Shown here in pieces: positions 1 through 5,432 of a stretch of 5,490 nt of DNA. Positions within the stretch are counted from its first letter, which is position 1. Each line of letters opens with the position of its first letter. The position numbers and the translations under genes were made by a program. This stretch comes from Escherichia phage Lilleput. The stretch lies in the sequence record MK629525. One strand, 5' to 3'. Under the pieces are notes generated by a model, which searched no databases, was not told the DNA's origin, and saw only the letters and a program-made list of their open reading frames with translations.

Positions 1-1635
1 ATGTCTGTAGAACTCATCAAACCACTCGTCGAAGCCGCTGGCATGTCGACACTCACACAATCTCCAAACCTCCGTATCTGGAAACAGGTAAACACTCGCG
101 TAAAATTACTCGAAGAAATCCTTGCTCACTGGACAAACGGAATCCGTCGCTGCCCTGAAACTCAAGACTTCTACATGAACCCAAACTCTCAACTGGCTAC
201 TACTATTGCCTATCGTGCCCATCAAAAAGGACACAACCCAAAACTCATTCAATACCCTGACACATTTACTCTCGACGACATTATTCGCCGTAAACCAATC
301 CCTCAAACTGCCCCTAACGAACTACGCCTCTCTGATGAAATCGGTGAGGATTACCGCCTTACAGTCATTGCCATTGCTGACGAACTGCAAGAATGTTACG
401 ACGTGCTCGGACAACTTGATATTAATAACACTATAGACCACACCCCTAAAGGTAACGCCCACTGGAGTATGCTTTATGATAAACCTGTTAACACCCATTG
501 GTCACAGCTCGTATCTAAACGACCCCTTAAAGATATCCGCGCCGATTACAACTATGCAAAGGCGAAGGGTATTAAGGATGAATGCTCAAAAATGCTTGAG
601 GAATCTACCATGAAATCACGCCGTGGCTTTACCGTTCAAAGATTGATGAATGCTATGCGCCAAGCCCACACTGATGGCTGGTATGTTGTATTCGACACTC
701 TTACTCTGGCCGATGATCGCATACAGGCTTTCTATGATAATCCCAATGCTCTTCGTGACTACTTCCGTGATATTGGTCGTATGGTGCTTGCTGCCGAGGG
801 TCGCTCTGCTAATGACTCACACTCCGACTGCTATCAGTATTTTTGTGTTCCAGAGTATGGCACACAGCACGGCCGTCTACATTTTCATGCAGTGCACCTT
901 ATGCGGACACTTCCTCTGGGTTCTCGTGACCCTAACTTCGGTAAGCTGGTACGCACTAATCGCCAAATAAACTCCTTGCAAAACACATGGCCCTATGGCT
1001 ATTCTATGCCCATCGCAGTCCGGTACTCCCAAGACGCATTCTCGCGCGCTGGCTGGCTCTGGCCTGTTGACTCAAAGGGTGAACCCCTTAAAGCTACCTC
1101 GTATATGGCTGTCGGCTTCTACGTCGCTAAATACGTTAATAAAAAATCTGATATTGATATGGCCGCAAAAGGCCTAGGGAATAAAGAATGGAACGCATCA
1201 CTCAAGACCAAAATATCTCTCCTACCAACAAAACTATTCAGAATCCGGATGTCCCGCAACTTCGGGATGAAGATGTTATCAATGGCGCACCTGACCGCCG
1301 AAGCATTAATCCAACTGACCCAGCTGGGCTACGACTCGACCCCGTTCAACAACGTCTTGAAGCAGAACGCGAAGAAAGAGCTGAAATCGAGGCTGGCAAA
1401 AGCATCTGTCGCGACCGTTTTGGCGGCGCAACCTGTAACGACCAATCTGCTAAAATTTATGCGCGATTTGACCCGAACAATCGGAGCGTCCAACCTGCAG
1501 AATTTTATCGCTTCAATGACTCAGAAATTAACACTCATGGATACTTCTGATGAAACCAAAAACTACCTTGCTGCTGCAGGAATTACTACTGCTTGCTTAC
1601 GAATTAAATCGAAGTGGACTGCTGGTGGAAAATGA
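1..1635 (+). CDS. A: Replication initiation protein A (rolling-circle HUH endonuclease), 544 aa
   Basis: Long ORF in frame 1. C-terminal two thirds closely resemble phiX174 gpA as recalled. HUH motif HFHAVH at 880-897 and catalytic tyrosine pair in YVAKY (Tyr codons 1120-1122 and 1132-1134). The replication origin lies inside the ORF. If the molecule is circular, GGAGG at 5479-5483 sits 7 nt upstream of the ATG at position 1. The N-terminal ~200 aa are much more divergent. Confidence 0.9.
413..442 (+). other. Origin of viral (+) strand rolling-circle replication; predicted gpA nick between G419 and A420
   Basis: The sequence CAACTTGATATTAATAACACTATAGACCAC matches the conserved 30-nt phiX174-type origin as I recall it, embedded in gene A at the equivalent place. 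Confidence 0.8.
610..1635 (+). CDS. A*: A* protein, in-frame internal initiation product of gene A, 341 aa
   Basis: In-frame ATG at 610 preceded by GAGGA at 596-600. The product begins MKSRRGF, which matches the start of phiX174 A* as recalled, and the length matches too. Sequence alone cannot show whether this start is used. Confidence 0.55.
1188..1550 (+). CDS. B: Internal scaffolding protein B, 120 aa
   Basis: ORF nested inside A in a different frame. ATG at 1188 with AGGG at 1176-1179 upstream. C-terminal half (EAGKS.C..RFGGATC.D.SA.IYARFD ... QPAEFYRF ... GYF) matches phiX174 gpB as recalled. Confidence 0.85.
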
Positions 1636-1714: not shown

Positions 1715-1892
1715 GGCTGATGCCCTCGACGAGGAAAAATGGCTTAACATGCTGGGCGCTCTTCTTAAGGACTGGTTCCTCTACGAAGAACATTTCGTAC
1801 ATGGCAAACAATCTTTAGTTGACATATTAATCGAACGGGGGTTACTATCCCCCACACAAACAACCCGTAACAACAAAGGAAATACCAAATGA
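1632..1892 (+). CDS. C: Protein C (switch from dsDNA replication to ssDNA synthesis and packaging), 86 aa
   Basis: [23 protein letters not shown]...[13 protein letters not shown] is near-identical to phiX174 gpC as recalled. The ATG at 1632 overlaps the TGA stop of A (ATGA), with GGTGGA at 1624-1629 upstream. The ORF-track start at 1614 is an upstream in-frame extension that I reject. Confidence 0.85.
1819..1848 (+). promoter_or_regulatory. Candidate sigma70 promoter inside gene C, upstream of D (pD-like)
   Basis: TTGACA at 1819-1824, then a 17-18 nt spacer, then TTACTAT at 1842-1848. Position and sequence resemble the phiX174 pD region (TTGACATTTTAAAAGAGCGTGGATTACTAT) as recalled. Confidence 0.45.
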
Positions 1893-2344
1893 ACTCCAAC
1901 GAATCTGCTGTAGCATTTCAAACTGCAATCGCTTCTATCAAAATGATTCAAGCCTCATCCGTCCTCGACCTTACCGAAGACGACTTCGAATTCTTAACTG
2001 GTGACCGTGTCTGGATTGCTACCGATCGTTCTCGCGCTCGCCGTGCTGTGGAGGCCTGCGTTTATGGCACACTGGACTTTGTCGGGTATCCTCGCTTTCC
2101 TGCTCCTGTTGAGTTTATTTCTGCTGTTATCGCTTACTACGTTCATCCGGTCAACATCCAGACCGCTTGCCTTATCATGGAAGGAGCCGAGTTTACTGAG
2201 AACATCGTCAATGGCGTTGAATCCCCAGTTAAGGCTTCCGAACTCTTCGCTTTCGTTCTCCGTGTCCGCGCTGGCTGTAAAGACGTCCTCGAAGGCGCCG
2301 AAGACAACATCCGCGCTAAACTCCGTGCACAAGGAATCATGTAA
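1889..2344 (+). CDS. D: External scaffolding protein D, 151 aa
   Basis: Strong similarity to phiX174 gpD (FQTA.ASIK.IQAS.VLDLTEDDF.FLT...VWIATDRSRARR.VEACVYGTLDFVGYPRFPAPVEFI.AVIAYYVHPVNIQTACLIMEGAEFTEN). The ATG at 1889 overlaps the C stop (ATGA). AAGGA at 1876-1880. Confidence 0.92.
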   Translation: MNSNESAVAFQTAIASIKMIQASSVLDLTEDDFEFLTGDRVWIATDRSRARRAVEACVYGTLDFVGYPRFPAPVEFISAVIAYYVHPVNIQTACLIMEGAEFTENIVNGVESPVKASELFAFVLRVRAGCKDVLEGAEDNIRAKLRAQGIM

Positions 2345-2351
2345 TGGCTAA
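2064..2351 (+). CDS. E: Lysis protein E (single-gene lysis, MraY inhibitor family), 95 aa
   Basis: ORF nested in D, shifted +1 relative to the D frame. ATG at 2064 with GGAGG at 2050-2054 upstream. The N-terminal segment M.HWTL...LAFLLLLSL is hydrophobic and resembles phiX174 E (MVRWTLWDTLAFLLLLSLLL...) as recalled. The track ORF begins at a GTG at 2001, but homology supports the ATG at 2064. Confidence 0.8.
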   Translation: MAHWTLSGILAFLLLLSLFLLLSLTTFIRSTSRPLALSWKEPSLLRTSSMALNPQLRLPNSSLSFSVSALAVKTSSKAPKTTSALNSVHKESCNG

Positions 2352-2430: not shown

Positions 2431-2438
2431 CCTTCTAT

Positions 2439-2456
2439 GTGGGACCACGGTCCCAC
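2439..2456 (+). terminator. J-F intergenic hairpin, candidate weak intrinsic terminator or mRNA-stabilising stem-loop
   Basis: GTGGGAC (2439-2445) pairs with GTCCCAC (2450-2456) around a 4-nt loop CACG, followed by TCTATTT. Same position as the GC-rich hairpin after J in phiX174. Confidence 0.4.
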
Positions 2457-2474
2457 TCTATTTAAGGATATAAA

Positions 2475-3761
2475 ATGTCTAATGTTCAAACTTCTGCCTC
2501 TCGTGATGCAATTGATTTATCACATCTGGTCTTCAACACTGGCGCTATTGGTCGCCTTAAAGTCGCATCATGGACCCCTGTTATCGCTGGTGATTCTTTC
2601 CAGCTTGACGCTGTTGGTGCTTTACGCTTATCCCCTCTGCGTCGCGGCTTGGCTATTGACTCAACTGTTGATTACTTCACTTTCTACATCCCACACCGTC
2701 ATATCTATGGCGATGCATGGATTCAATTTATGAAAACTGGCGTCGCTGCCACTTCTCTTAACCCTGTAACTACTGGCGAATACGTTGATAGCGCCTCTTA
2801 TCTTGGTGTAATCCCTTCTGCTGATGGCAAGGTTCCCAAGTTCCTGCACCAAGGCTATCTCAATATTTACAATAACTACTTCAAAGCCCCTTGGATGGCT
2901 GACCGTACTGAGGCAAACCCCTCCAACTTAAACGACGACGACCGTCGTCACGGCTTCCGCTGCTGTCACTTAAAAAATATCTGGTCTGCGCCTCTTCCTC
3001 CTCAAACGGAAATTACCCGCGCTATGACTACTGGCGCTACCTCCATTGATATCATGGGTCTTCAAGCTGCCTACGCCCAACTTCACACTGACCAAGAACG
3101 TGACTACTTCATGCAACGTTACCGTGACGTAATCTCTTCGTTCGGTGGCAAAACTCACTATGACGCTGACAACCGTCCTCTTCTGCTTATGCGCTCTAAT
3201 TTCTGGGCCTCTGGCTATGACATTGACGGTACTGACCAAACCTCATTAGGTCAATTCTCTGGTCGTGTCCAACAAACATTCCGCCACTCTGTTCCTCGCT
3301 TCTTCGTACCGGAACACGGCGTTATTATGACTCTTCAACTTGTACGCTTCCCGCCTACCTGCACTGAGGAAACTCACTACCTCGTCGGCAAAGGCGCACT
3401 AAACTATACTGACCTTGCGGGCGACCCTACTCTTTACGCTAACTTACCGCCTCGCGAAATCGAAATGAAAACTCTCTTCCGTGGCGCTGCCGGCTCTTCT
3501 GAAAAAATCAAAATTGCCGAAGGGCAATGGTATCGCTATCATCCTTCTTACGTTGATGGCCAATATCACAACCTTCAAGGCTTCCCGTTCATCCCAAATG
3601 GCCCAACTGGCAACATGGAAAACCGTGTACTGATTGACCATAAAAAATATGACGAATGCTTCCAATCACTTCAGTTAACTCACTGGAATGCTCAGGCTAA
3701 ATACAATGTCACTGTATATCGACATATCCCGACTACACGTGATAGCATCATGACTTCTTAA
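2475..3761 (+). CDS. F: Major capsid protein F, 428 aa
   Basis: Similar along its full length to phiX174 gpF as recalled (MSN.QT...DLSHL ... TPVIAGDSF..DAVGALRLSPLRRGLAIDSTVD.FTFY.PHRH.YG ... QGYLNIYNNYFKAPWM.DRTEANP ... HGFRCCHLKNIW.APLPP.TE ... TTRDSIMTS). AAGGA at 2464-2468. Confidence 0.95.
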   Translation: MSNVQTSASRDAIDLSHLVFNTGAIGRLKVASWTPVIAGDSFQLDAVGALRLSPLRRGLAIDSTVDYFTFYIPHRHIYGDAWIQFMKTGVAATSLNPVTTGEYVDSASYLGVIPSADGKVPKFLHQGYLNIYNNYFKAPWMADRTEANPSNLNDDDRRHGFRCCHLKNIWSAPLPPQTEITRAMTTGATSIDIMGLQAAYAQLHTDQERDYFMQRYRDVISSFGGKTHYDADNRPLLLMRSNFWASGYDIDGTDQTSLGQFSGRVQQTFRHSVPRFFVPEHGVIMTLQLVRFPPTCTEETHYLVGKGALNYTDLAGDPTLYANLPPREIEMKTLFRGAAGSSEKIKIAEGQWYRYHPSYVDGQYHNLQGFPFIPNGPTGNMENRVLIDHKKYDECFQSLQLTHWNAQAKYNVTVYRHIPTTRDSIMTS

Positions 3762-3772
3762 AGCCTATAACG

Positions 3773-3810
3773 TGACAGGGGGAAAAATTTTAATTTTTCG
3801 CCCCCTGTCA
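3773..3810 (+). other. F-G intergenic extended imperfect palindrome; candidate complementary-strand origin / primosome assembly site
   Basis: TGACAGGGGG (3773-3782) pairs with CCCCCTGTCA (3801-3810). They flank an AT-only inner palindrome AAAAATTTTAATTTTT (3783-3798) with a CG bulge at 3799-3800. The region is recognisably related to the phiX174 F-G intergenic sequence GCGGTAAAAATTTTAATTTTTGCCGC as recalled. Confidence 0.5.
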
Positions 3811-3860
3811 GGTTGAACAAGCGCAAGCGCGTTAGCTGCCTAACCATAAGGACTACTCAA

Positions 3861-4385
3861 ATGTTTCAGAACTTTGTTACTAAACACAACTCTCCTCAAT
3901 TTACTACTAATATCACAAAGGCCGTCACTCCCGCCGCGTTGGCTCCTATTATTAATACGCCAACCGTTGCGCGTGACAATCTCTTTGTGAACTTAACTAC
4001 TACCGCCCTAACTTCTGCGGGCGGTATCTCTGCTGTTGTCGCTATCGACAACTCTTCTCATACCGACAATCAGGTTATTTCTATCGCTGCCTCTCTTTCT
4101 ACTACTGGCAGTCTAGTACCTGTTCTTTGTCGGTTTGAATCTGCTACTGTACCAACGGCTATTCCCGCATCTGCGGTTACTTACTATCCGTTGGACTTTA
4201 CATCATCTGCTACCGCTCTGTCCGTCAAGGACTGTGCTACTGTCTCTACTATCTCTCGCTCTGGCAATCCTGTTTATGTAGGTATTGCCCTTATTGCGAA
4301 ATCATTTGCCGCTGATACTGTATACGGCTCTATCTCAATTAATCAGGTTGACCAAGAAATCACAACTCTGCAACCTCTCAAATAA
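3861..4385 (+). CDS. G: Major spike protein G, 174 aa
   Basis: MFQNF..KHNS ... CRFES..VPT ... VKDC.T ... NPVYVG ... NQV..EI..LQPLK matches phiX174 gpG as recalled. ATG at 3861 with AAGGA at 3848-3852 upstream. The track ORF starts at a TTG at 3813 inside the intergenic palindrome, which I reject. Confidence 0.9.
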   Translation: MFQNFVTKHNSPQFTTNITKAVTPAALAPIINTPTVARDNLFVNLTTTALTSAGGISAVVAIDNSSHTDNQVISIAASLSTTGSLVPVLCRFESATVPTAIPASAVTYYPLDFTSSATALSVKDCATVSTISRSGNPVYVGIALIAKSFAADTVYGSISINQVDQEITTLQPLK

Positions 4386-4394
4386 GGAATCTCT

Positions 4395-5432
4395 ATGTTT
4401 GGTGCAATCGCTGGCGGCATCGCCTCTACTCTTGCTGGCGGTCTAATGTCCAAACTGATGGGCGGCAATAAACAAGCCGCCCCCTCAACTCCCGGACAAG
4501 GCCTCTTCGCTACCCCTGAAACTACTATCTCTGCTGACAATGCAGGTATTCAATCTGTTATGCAGGGACCTAACCCGCCTGGCCCTGACCAAGCGGCTCC
4601 CACATTTACTGAATCTGCCGTCTCCTCACTTAAGGATGCTGGCAAAGGACTTCTCGATGGTACTCTACAAGCTGGCGGCTCTGCTGTTCAACAGGCTCTT
4701 CTTAACAAAATTGGCCTCGGTGGCAAATCTGCTGCTGATAAAGGCAAGGATACTAAAGATTACCTTGCTTCTGCGTTCCCCGAGCTCAACCCGTGGGAAC
4801 GCGCTGGCGCTGGTGCTTCCTCTGCTGGTATGGTTGACGCTGGTTTTGAAAACCAAAAGCAACTAACCAAAATGCAACTTGACAACCAAGTCAAAATCGC
4901 TAAGATGCAAAACGACACTCAAAAGGATATCGCTGGTATCCAGTCTGCCACATCACGCATGAATACTAAGGACTCTGTATATGCTCAAAACGAAATGCTC
5001 CAATACAACCAAAAGGAATCTATGTCACGTGTTGGCGCTATTCTCGAAAACACAAGCCTCACCAAACAACAACAAACTTCTGAAATTATGCGCCAAATGC
5101 TTACTCAGGCTCAAACCTCAGGACAACACTTTACTAACGCTCAAATCCAAGAACTTACTCGAAAAGTCGGTGCTGATATTGATGCTGTTCGTGCTAACAC
5201 TCAACGCACCAATGTAGAAACTGACCGCTCTAAACAGGAAGTCCAAAACTCACGTTACGCATCATCACAGGTCGGTAAAACCGCCAAGGACGTATCAAAT
5301 GTCATTAGTGACGCATCTTCTGGTATTGTTGATTATTTTCGTGGCGTTGATAAAGCTGTGGCTGACACTTGGAACAATTATTGGAAAGATGGTAAAGCCG
5401 ACGGAGTAGGCTCCAACATGTCTCGCAAATAG
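4395..5432 (+). CDS. H: DNA pilot / minor spike protein H, 345 aa
   Basis: N-terminus [21 protein letters not shown] and long blocks ([51 protein letters not shown] ... [16 protein letters not shown] ... [24 protein letters not shown]) match phiX174 gpH as recalled. AAGGA at 4384-4388. Confidence 0.92.

What the first reader, a model, noticed from the sequence alone, without database searches (positions are those of the whole stretch)
2064..2351. Lysis protein E has Leu21 and Arg29 where phiX174 E is recalled to have Pro21 and Pro29
E codon 21 is CTG (2124-2126) and codon 29 is CGG (2148-2150). The recalled phiX174 codons at both places are CCG. Both differences are third-position changes in the overlapping D frame (GCC to GCT, Ala; CCC to CCG, Pro), so D is unchanged while E loses both prolines. 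Pro21 is reported to be essential for E-mediated lysis and its SlyD dependence. This E may therefore work differently, be SlyD-independent, or be attenuated. The first Pro in this E is at residue 34.
Basis: partly seen in the sequence, partly recalled or inferred. Interest (0 to 1): 0.6.

Follow-up and report, generated by a model that had tools for sequence, protein, structure and literature searches.

The report
Natural lysis protein E lacking Pro21
This small phage, and a whole natural group of its plaque-forming relatives, carry a version of the phiX174-type lysis protein E in which the membrane-helix proline that laboratory work calls indispensable is replaced, together with five neighbouring residues, and the new version is itself kept unchanged by selection.

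Summary
E (2064-2351) has CTG Leu at codon 21 and CGG Arg at codon 29, where phiX174 E has Pro. Both changes are silent in gene D.

It is not peculiar to this genome. The window is a complete G4-like microvirus of the SECphi17/"Lille" group. All 9 genomes of that lineage read LSLFLLLSLTTFI where every other E reads LSLLLPSLLIMFI. These are the window, six E. coli K-12 isolates, one metagenome contig and Salmonella phage PJNS002. The differences are L19F, P21L, S22L, L23S, I25T and M26T. P29R is added in the E. coli branch only.

The 60 nt encoding E residues 10-29 show no D-silent difference between phiX174, alpha3 and G4. The new version is almost as frozen: 1/20 codons differ between the window and PJNS002, against 41/93 elsewhere in D (p=7e-4). 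The start codon, ribosome site and open frame are all kept.

So E here is most likely a working lysis protein with a rebuilt, proline-free helix, not a crippled one. Whether it still blocks MraY the same way, and whether it needs SlyD, cannot be decided from sequence. H3 and F19 are the two changes phiX174 acquires on slyD-defective hosts. I found no publication or annotation of this variant.

The parts
2064..2351 (+). Gene E orthologue. It encodes 95 aa in the +1 frame inside gene D and runs 7 nt past the D stop. It is not annotated in any GenBank record of the clade.
   Evidence: It shares the position, frame and start codon of annotated E in ID2, ID18, G4, phiX174 and alpha3. It matches PDB 8G01 chain B (E of ID21) at E=3.7e-9, with residues 3-18 identical.
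2050..2054 (+). GGAGG Shine-Dalgarno-like motif 9 nt upstream of the E ATG. A GAGG core is present in all relatives.
   Evidence: GAGG sits at the same distance from the ATG in all 17 genomes compared, and the in-frame stop 22 codons upstream is also at the same place in all of them.
2073..2147 (+). Predicted single transmembrane helix, residues W4-I28, with no proline.
   Evidence: Highest hydrophobicity window of the genome. AlphaFold2 single-sequence model gives an uninterrupted helix over residues 3-32, with pLDDT 96 for residues 11-20 and 90 for residues 21-30. For G4 E it gives a helix over 4-26 and pLDDT 64 for residues 21-30.
2118..2150 (+). Rewritten segment, E codons 19-29. It reads F L L L S L T T F I R where other E proteins read L L P S L L I M F I P.
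   Evidence: Six of the seven changes are D-silent third-position changes.
2124..2126 (+). E codon 21, CTG (Leu) in place of CCG (Pro).
2148..2150 (+). E codon 29, CGG (Arg) in place of CCG (Pro). This change is found only in the E. coli branch; PJNS002 keeps Pro29.
2120..2122 (+). D codon 78, TCT (Ser), where other Bullavirinae have GCT (Ala). The same G>T substitution makes E L19F. It is the nucleotide change that phiX174 fixes on slyD-defective hosts (nt 624, D A79S / E L19F).
   Evidence: PMC3324380 Table 2.
1889..2344 (+). Gene D (external scaffolding protein). It hosts E and limits which E residues are reachable.

Best explanation
The ORF at 2064-2351 is the true orthologue of microvirus lysis gene E, and most likely still the phage's lysis gene.

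In the common ancestor of the SECphi17/'Lille' coliphages and Salmonella phage PJNS002, the cytoplasm-proximal half of the E membrane helix was rewritten. The changes were L19F, P21L, S22L, L23S, I25T and M26T, and later P29R in the E. coli branch. Almost all of them came from changes that are silent in the overlapping scaffolding gene D. The result is a second, proline-free sequence state that selection now preserves as tightly as it preserves the classical state.

Residues 3-18 are unchanged. In the published MraY-E-SlyD structure, as I recall it, this part lies in the MraY TM5/TM9 groove. The most likely mechanism is therefore still insertion into the inner membrane with the N terminus out, docking on MraY, block of lipid I synthesis, and septal lysis.

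In this reading the proline kink is replaced by an unbroken helix. The new Ser23/Thr25/Thr26 may supply flexibility or polar contacts.

Shown here: homology, the rewrite, its clade-wide fixation, purifying selection on it, and an intact start site and open frame. Inferred: lytic activity of this E, MraY as its target, and any compensation by Ser/Thr. Open: SlyD dependence. H3 and F19 are the two phiX174 'plates on slyD' changes.
For: 1. **Homology and synteny.** The ATG sits inside the D codons V-Y-G as in other E genes. The GAGG motif and the upstream in-frame stop are shared. Residues 3-18 are identical to E of ID21 in PDB 8G01. Identity to G4 E is 53-60%.

2. **Clade-wide state.** Nine genomes carry LSLFLLLSLTTFI. 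They are 90-97% identical to each other, or about 82% for PJNS002. Of 573 Bullavirinae records in the phage collection, only 7 carry this segment.

3. **The classical segment is frozen.** D-silent differences in E codons 10-29 are 0/20 for G4-phiX174, G4-alpha3 and phiX174-alpha3, against 45-68% elsewhere in D (p=1.4e-6).

4. **The new segment is frozen too.**
   - Window versus PJNS002 shows 1/20 against 41/93 elsewhere in D (Fisher p=6.7e-4).
   - Among the 8 E. coli-branch genomes, D third positions are polymorphic in 2/29 codons under E1-29, against 25/58 upstream of E (p=4.7e-4).

5. **The frame is kept open.** With D's protein fixed and silent codons resampled, the E frame stays open for at least 91 codons in only 2.3% of trials. 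It is open in all nine genomes.

6. **The phages lyse cells.** They were isolated as plaque formers on E. coli MG1655 or Salmonella (PMC7552041; PMC12328618).

7. **No substitute lysis gene was found.** The hydrophobic ORF at 2437-2733 is broken in PJNS002. ORF 650-967 shows no silent-site constraint.

8. **Single steps are viable.** The G4 laboratory strain has F19 and T26 together with P21.
Against: - No experiment on this E exists. Lytic activity, target and chaperone need are all inferred.
- Laboratory work says P21 cannot be replaced or moved. According to the review PMC5039524, moving it along the helix abolishes MraY inhibition. P21A abolishes lysis in ID52-E (PMC11126076).
- The rewritten residues include 6 of the 20 residues (10-29) that never vary in other lineages, so the binding geometry may well differ.
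- The C-terminal part falls below Pfam's threshold for PF04517: 15.9 bits against a cutoff of 25.
- Silent-site conservation shows a constraint in that stretch. It does not prove the constraint is E's lytic function.
- The Ser/Thr compensation idea rests only on general knowledge of membrane helices.
- The polarity of the change (Pro ancestral) rests on parsimony. My quick trees were unreliable.
Confidence: 0.62

Rival explanations
1. E is functional but works differently. The proline-free helix binds MraY in another pose, or has moved to another membrane target, for example another polyprenyl-phosphate enzyme or lipid II flippase. The six coordinated changes would then mark a change of specificity rather than compensation.
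For: Seven of the 11 residues 19-29 are changed, in a segment that never varies in other lineages. The change looks like a discrete switch followed by renewed conservation. The four unchanged residues 20, 24, 27 and 28 fall on one 100-degree face of the helix (p=0.033). The literature describes the P21 kink as crucial for MraY inhibition (PMC5039524).
Against: Residues 3-18 are identical to an E that was solved bound to MraY. P21-type phages (G4, alpha3/St-1-like Lilleven, ID52) infect the same K-12 hosts with the same MraY, so no host-side reason for a new target is visible. Other known single-gene lysis proteins with other targets are unrelated in sequence (general knowledge).
Confidence: 0.22
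2. E is attenuated or dead in this lineage. Lysis would then be slow or leaky, or provided by another product.
For: P21A, and reportedly other P21 substitutions, abolish lysis in phiX174 and ID52 E (PMC11126076, PMC5039524). E is not annotated in any record of the clade. A 106-codon hydrophobic ORF (650-967) is open in this clade only.
Against: There is purifying selection on the rewritten segment, both between and within sub-clades. The start codon and SD are intact, and in the window the SD is stronger, GGAGG. The frame is open in all nine genomes (p=0.023 per genome by chance). ORF 650-967 shows no silent-site constraint, 32/95 against 39/193 and 23/63 in flanking parts of A. ORF 2437-2733 is broken in PJNS002. 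The state has persisted over about 18% nucleotide divergence.
Confidence: 0.08
3. The conservation of this 60-nt stretch has nothing to do with E. It could reflect an RNA or DNA element, or translation-related codon choice in D. The Leu21 state would then be a neutral by-product.
For: The test used here measures constraint on D-silent sites, not E function directly.
Against: The frozen stretch coincides with the E membrane helix that genetics defines as the active part (PMC5039524). D-silent sites over the downstream, C-terminal part of E vary at about the background rate between sub-clades. Both sequence states keep a hydrophobic helix in the E frame.
Confidence: 0.05
4. Sequencing or assembly error in this genome.
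For: None.
Against: The same segment occurs in eight other independently obtained sequences, from Denmark, China, Israel-derived SECphi17 and a metagenome.
Confidence: 0.01

Closest known systems
Lysis protein E of G4-like microviruses (Gequatrovirus: G4, ID11, WA3, ID52)
   Same: It occupies the same locus and the same +1 frame in D, with the same start codon and SD. Residues 3-18 (HWTLSGILAFLLLLSL) are identical. The G4-type cytoplasmic tail is shared (SSWK..SL.KTSSM.LN.QL.P.N.S), and the length is similar at 95-105 aa. The G4 laboratory strain already carries F19 and T26.
   Different: P21 is replaced by Leu, S22 by Leu, L23 by Ser and I25 by Thr. In the E. coli branch P29 is replaced by Arg, which puts a positive charge four residues earlier at the cytoplasmic end of the helix.
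phiX174 E and E of ID21 in the MraY-E-SlyD ('YES') complex, PDB 8G01/8G02
   Same: It is a homologous single-pass membrane protein, matching at E=3.7e-9 and 2.3e-7. The expected mechanism is obstruction of the MraY active site (summarised in PMC12506998 and PMC11126076).
   Different: The reference proteins have the Pro21 kink, which mutagenesis describes as crucial (PMC5039524) and which is said to bend the helix in the cryo-EM structure (PMC11812184, where it is misnumbered Pro-19). This E has no proline in the helix. The phiX174 RWxxW motif is absent, as it is in G4.
phiX174 Epos ('plates on slyD') alleles R3H and L19F
   Same: The window E has His3 and Phe19. Phe19 arises from the same G>T change that turns D Ala into Ser (PMC3324380 Table 2).
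   Different: Epos alleles keep P21. They act by raising E expression (PMC3324380). Here the two changes are natural, fixed, and combined with five further changes.

Membership tests
Microvirus lysis protein E (gene E of Bullavirinae), membership by descent | Encoded entirely in the +1 frame of scaffolding gene D, starting at the ATG formed by the D codons Tyr-Gly (TATGG), with GAGG upstream | tested here: met
   The arrangement is identical to annotated E genes in ID2, ID18, G4, phiX174 and alpha3.
Microvirus lysis protein E (gene E of Bullavirinae), membership by descent | Significant sequence similarity to known E proteins, including the N-terminal WTL..LAFLLLLSL helix | tested here: met
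   PDB 8G01_B at E=3.7e-9; G4 E at E=8.6e-12; E=1e-10 in the search of the 1.84-billion-protein library.
Microvirus lysis protein E (gene E of Bullavirinae), membership by descent | Pfam PF04517 (Microvir_lysis, C-terminal part) at or above the gathering score | tested here: not met
   The window E scores 15.9 bits against a cutoff of 25. PJNS002 E, from the same Leu21 clade, scores 45.4 bits. The model covers only the variable tail.
Functional class: Pro-kinked MraY-blocking E, as defined by mutagenesis and the YES structure | Proline at position 21 of the membrane helix | tested here: not met
   CTG Leu at 2124-2126. There is no Pro in residues 1-33.
Functional class: Pro-kinked MraY-blocking E, as defined by mutagenesis and the YES structure | Invariant helix core, residues 10-29, LAFLLLLSLLLPSLLIMFIP | tested here: not met
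   Seven of the 20 residues differ.
Functional class: Pro-kinked MraY-blocking E, as defined by mutagenesis and the YES structure | Inhibits MraY; lysis is suppressed by mraY F288L-type alleles | not testable with these tools
   This needs expression in E. coli, or a multimer structure prediction. Neither was available.
Functional class: Pro-kinked MraY-blocking E, as defined by mutagenesis and the YES structure | Requires or binds the chaperone SlyD | not testable with these tools
   The only indirect hints are H3 and F19. ID52-E shows that P21 and SlyD independence can coexist.

The most novel reading that the evidence does not exclude
A natural lineage of microviruses has solved MraY inhibition, or found another lethal target, with a straight, proline-free E helix. 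Its six linked substitutions would be a ready-made suppressor set showing that the 'indispensable' Pro21 kink is only one of two workable designs. It may also be independent of SlyD.
Probability: 0.25. Interest if true: 0.7.

Novelty: new variant of a known kind. Interest (0 to 1): 0.55.

Why it matters
E is the textbook 'protein antibiotic' and the tool used to make bacterial ghosts. Pro21 is the one residue that the sources I could read describe as essential and conserved. A whole natural clade lacks it yet conserves its replacement, and that clade includes SECphi17, which is used routinely in anti-phage defence studies.

This gives a direct experimental handle on what the kink is for, on which residues can compensate, and on how much freedom an overprinted gene has. 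D's Ala and Pro codons allow only P, L, Q or R at E positions 21 and 29. The case also shows that E is missing from the annotation of these genomes, which explains why the variant went unnoticed.

Tried and rejected
- **Papers not held.** The primary papers could not be read: Orta 2023, Tanaka & Clemons 2012 and Zheng 2008. Structural details of the YES complex, and of which E residues touch MraY or SlyD, therefore rest on secondary summaries and on memory.
- **Protein database searches.** They gave no Leu21-type E: 2 hits and 3 hits, all with P21. This is informative only in showing that the variant is unannotated.
- **DNA pattern scans.**
  - IMG/VR held 19 contigs with the D motif, and none has a non-Pro codon 21.
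  - The genome collection gave nothing.
  - The metagenome scan gave one more clade member.
- **Trees.** Neighbour-joining trees of F and A were distorted by ORFs cut at record ends and by mosaicism, so I did not use them for polarity. A sliding comparison of D shows the window, G4 and PJNS002 roughly equidistant, with 75, 83 and 81 differences.
- **Upstream start.** An upstream in-frame start, GTG at 2001, adds 21 residues but no helix proline. The same upstream frame and stop exist in all relatives, so I rejected it.
- **Alternative lysis genes.** ORFs 2437-2733, 650-967, 5218-5406 and others were tested and rejected.
- **AlphaFold2.** Single-chain, single-sequence models are only weak support for an unbroken helix. 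No complex modelling was possible.
- **Helical wheel.** The helical-wheel clustering (p=0.033) is suggestive only, and it disappears if Pro29 is counted as unchanged, as in PJNS002.

Full report
**What the window is.** The 5490-nt window is a complete genome of a G4-like microvirus (Bullavirinae).
- It is 96-97% identical to Escherichia phages Lilledu, lillemer, MG1, Lilleto and Lilleen, 94% to SECphi17, and about 82-83% to Salmonella phage PJNS002.
- It is about 80% identical to ID2 and G4.
- The Danish isolates and SECphi17 were obtained on E. coli K-12 MG1655 (PMC7552041).
- That paper lists a fifth phage, Lilleput (MK629525, 5490 nt), which is not in the collection I could search. The window may be that genome, but I could not verify it.

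**Checking the observation.** The E reading frame starts at ATG 2064 and ends with TAA at 2349-2351, giving 95 residues.
- Codon 21 is CTG at 2124-2126 and codon 29 is CGG at 2148-2150. The first proline is residue 34.
- In the D frame the two sites are GCC>GCT (Ala) and CCC>CCG (Pro), both silent.

Aligning E from 15 and then 35 genomes shows that the difference is not two residues but a block.
- Every other E reads L-S-L-L-L-P-S-L-L-I-M-F-I-P at residues 16-29. That covers phiX174, alpha3-like, ID18, ID2, G4-like, 19 IMG/VR contigs and three database representatives.
- The window reads L-S-L-F-L-L-L-S-L-T-T-F-I-R. The changes are L19F, P21L, S22L, L23S, I25T, M26T and P29R.
- All but L19F are changes at D third positions. 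L19F is a G>T change that also turns D Ala into Ser (TCT at 2120-2122).
- The same block occurs in all six close relatives, in a metagenome contig only 90-92% identical to the window (L034), and in PJNS002. PJNS002 differs only in keeping Pro29.
- In a census of the 573 Bullavirinae records in the phage collection, 542 carry the classical 60-nt segment at 99% identity or better. Only 7 carry the new one.
- None of those 7 records annotates E. No Leu21-type E exists in the two large protein libraries.

**Is the rewritten E under selection?** E's second codon positions are D's third positions, so every D-silent change alters E. D-silent divergence under E therefore measures the constraint imposed by E.
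- *Classical lineages.* The 20 D codons under E residues 10-29 show 0/20 silent differences between G4 and phiX174, G4 and alpha3, and phiX174 and alpha3. Elsewhere in D, 45-68% of comparable codons differ (p=1.4e-6).
- *Window versus G4.* Here the segment shows 6/19 silent differences plus one replacement, which is the background rate. All of them fall in codons 19-29.
- *Window versus PJNS002.* These two are as far apart in D as either is from G4 (83, 75 and 81 differences). The segment is again nearly frozen at 1/20, against 41/93 elsewhere (p=6.7e-4).
- *Within the E. coli branch.* Among its eight genomes, third-position polymorphism occurs in 25/58 codons upstream of E. Under E1-29 it occurs in 2/29 (p=4.7e-4), and under the E tail in 12/63 (p=5.5e-3).
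- *Reading frame.* With D's protein held fixed and silent codons resampled, the E frame stays open for at least 91 codons in only 2.3% of trials. It is open in all nine genomes.
- *Start site.* The ATG, a GAGG motif at the same distance, and the upstream in-frame stop are shared with all other E genes. The window even has GGAGG.

Together this shows a switch between two alternative states, each conserved. It is not decay.

**Does something else do the lysis?** I screened all plus-strand stop-to-stop frames for hydrophobic stretches.
- The 98-codon ORF at 2437-2733, in an alternative frame of F, is open in the E. coli branch and in G4 but broken in PJNS002, ID2, ID18, alpha3 and phiX174. It has no Pfam match.
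- A 106-codon ORF at 650-967 starts 4 nt after the A* ATG. It is open in the Leu21 clade and broken in G4 and phiX174.
- That ORF imposes no silent-site constraint on gene A: 32/95 differences, against 39/193 and 23/63 in flanking parts.
- No candidate replacement for E emerged.

**What the literature says.**
- The review PMC5039524, citing Tanaka & Clemons 2012, states that Pro21 is critical. It says that moving the proline along the helix abolishes MraY inhibition and that the kink is 'absolutely crucial'.
- P21A also abolishes lysis by ID52-E, a G4-like E. That protein nevertheless lyses a slyD knockout (PMC11126076).
- PMC9311611 notes the proline at position 21 as evidence that the helix is conserved in Microviridae.
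- PMC11812184 says the cryo-EM structure shows E bent at the conserved proline and lying in the groove next to MraY helix 9.
- PMC12506998 summarises that E blocks the MraY active site in the MraY-E-SlyD complex.
- phiX174 evolving on slyD-defective hosts fixes E R3H, and E L19F through nt 624 G>T, which is also D A79S (PMC3324380 Table 2). The window has His3, Phe19 and the same D Ala>Ser change.
- I could not obtain Orta 2023, Tanaka & Clemons 2012 or Zheng 2008.
- Five literature searches found no paper describing an E without Pro21.

**Mechanism.** The first 18 residues are identical, apart from residue 2, to the E of ID21 that was solved bound to MraY. P21-type phages infect the same K-12 host. 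The most economical reading is therefore that this E still inserts N-out, docks on MraY and stops lipid I synthesis.
- What has changed is the half of the helix nearer the cytoplasm. It has no proline, three new hydroxyl residues (S23, T25, T26) and a bulkier F19. In the E. coli branch an arginine at 29 ends the hydrophobic span four residues earlier.
- Single-sequence AlphaFold2 models give an unbroken helix over residues 3-32 with pLDDT 90 over residues 21-30. For G4 E they give a helix over 4-26 with pLDDT 64 over the same residues. This is weak evidence.
- The four unchanged residues in positions 19-29 (L20, L24, F27, I28) lie within one 100-degree arc of the helical wheel (p=0.033). This is suggestive only.
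- That Ser and Thr residues can bend membrane helices is general knowledge, and applying it here is inference.
- F19 and T26 occur with P21 in the laboratory G4 strain. At least two of the six steps are therefore individually viable and could have come first.

**What remains open.** From sequence I cannot tell whether the binding pose or even the target has changed, or whether SlyD is needed. The C-terminal tail is G4-like but falls below Pfam's threshold (15.9 against 25 bits), while PJNS002's tail passes at 45.4 bits.

**Verdict.**
'Attenuated' is unlikely, the link between P21 and SlyD dependence is outdated, and 'works differently' remains possible.
- The feature is a new, apparently undescribed natural variant of a well-known protein. 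It is fixed in one lineage and maintained by selection.
- Its value is as a natural suppressor set for the best-known 'essential' residue of a model protein antibiotic.
- It is testable with a few plasmid constructs.

Noticed in passing
L035 (Vibrio phage vB_VpP_WS0699, PP583598.1) 3658-4110: This is a Bullavirinae-like phage of Vibrio parahaemolyticus with a recognisable D gene. At the place of E, the +1 frame holds only an 18-codon remnant, MELLTWSEWLAFLLRLSL*, so there is no intact E. Its lysis gene is unknown.
   Followed up: partly
window 650-967 (+): A 106-codon, very hydrophobic ORF in the +1 frame of gene A, whose ATG lies 4 nt after the A* start codon. It is open in the Leu21 clade including PJNS002, and interrupted in G4 and phiX174. 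It imposes no silent-site constraint on A (32/95 against 39/193 and 23/63), so it is probably a chance ORF.
   Followed up: yes
window 2437-2733 (+): A 98-codon hydrophobic ORF that starts in the J-F spacer and runs in an alternative frame of F. GenBank annotates part of it as a hypothetical protein in lillemer. It is open in the E. coli branch and in G4, broken in PJNS002, ID2, ID18, alpha3 and phiX174, and has no Pfam match.
   Followed up: yes
L022 (G4 reference, NC_001420/V00657) 2154-2444; P0001, P0002: The laboratory G4 strain's E carries F19, and in one version T26, together with P21. Wild G4-like phages (ID11, WA3, G4_WWN) have L19 and M26. These are two of the six changes of the Leu21 clade, and F19 equals the phiX174 slyD-bypass change.
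   Followed up: partly
L001-L007 (GenBank records of the clade): Genes E, B, K, J and A* are not annotated in any of the seven records. SECphi17 has no annotation at all. The window has clear counterparts: B at 1188-1550, K at 1550-1714, J at 2344-2430 and E at 2064-2351.
   Followed up: partly
window 2050-2054: The motif upstream of the E ATG is GGAGG in the window, SECphi17, MG1, Lilleen and the metagenome contig. It is CGAGG in Lilleto, Lilledu and lillemer, and TGAGG or CGAGG in the other Bullavirinae compared. The difference is a D-silent change that could raise E translation.
   Followed up: no
window 1-1635 (gene A) versus L007 and L010: Silent-site divergence along gene A is mosaic. 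In codons 1-215 the window is closer to PJNS002 (20%) than to G4 (32%). In codons 216-395 it is closer to G4 (17-20%) than to PJNS002 (34-37%). This suggests past recombination among these lineages.
   Followed up: no
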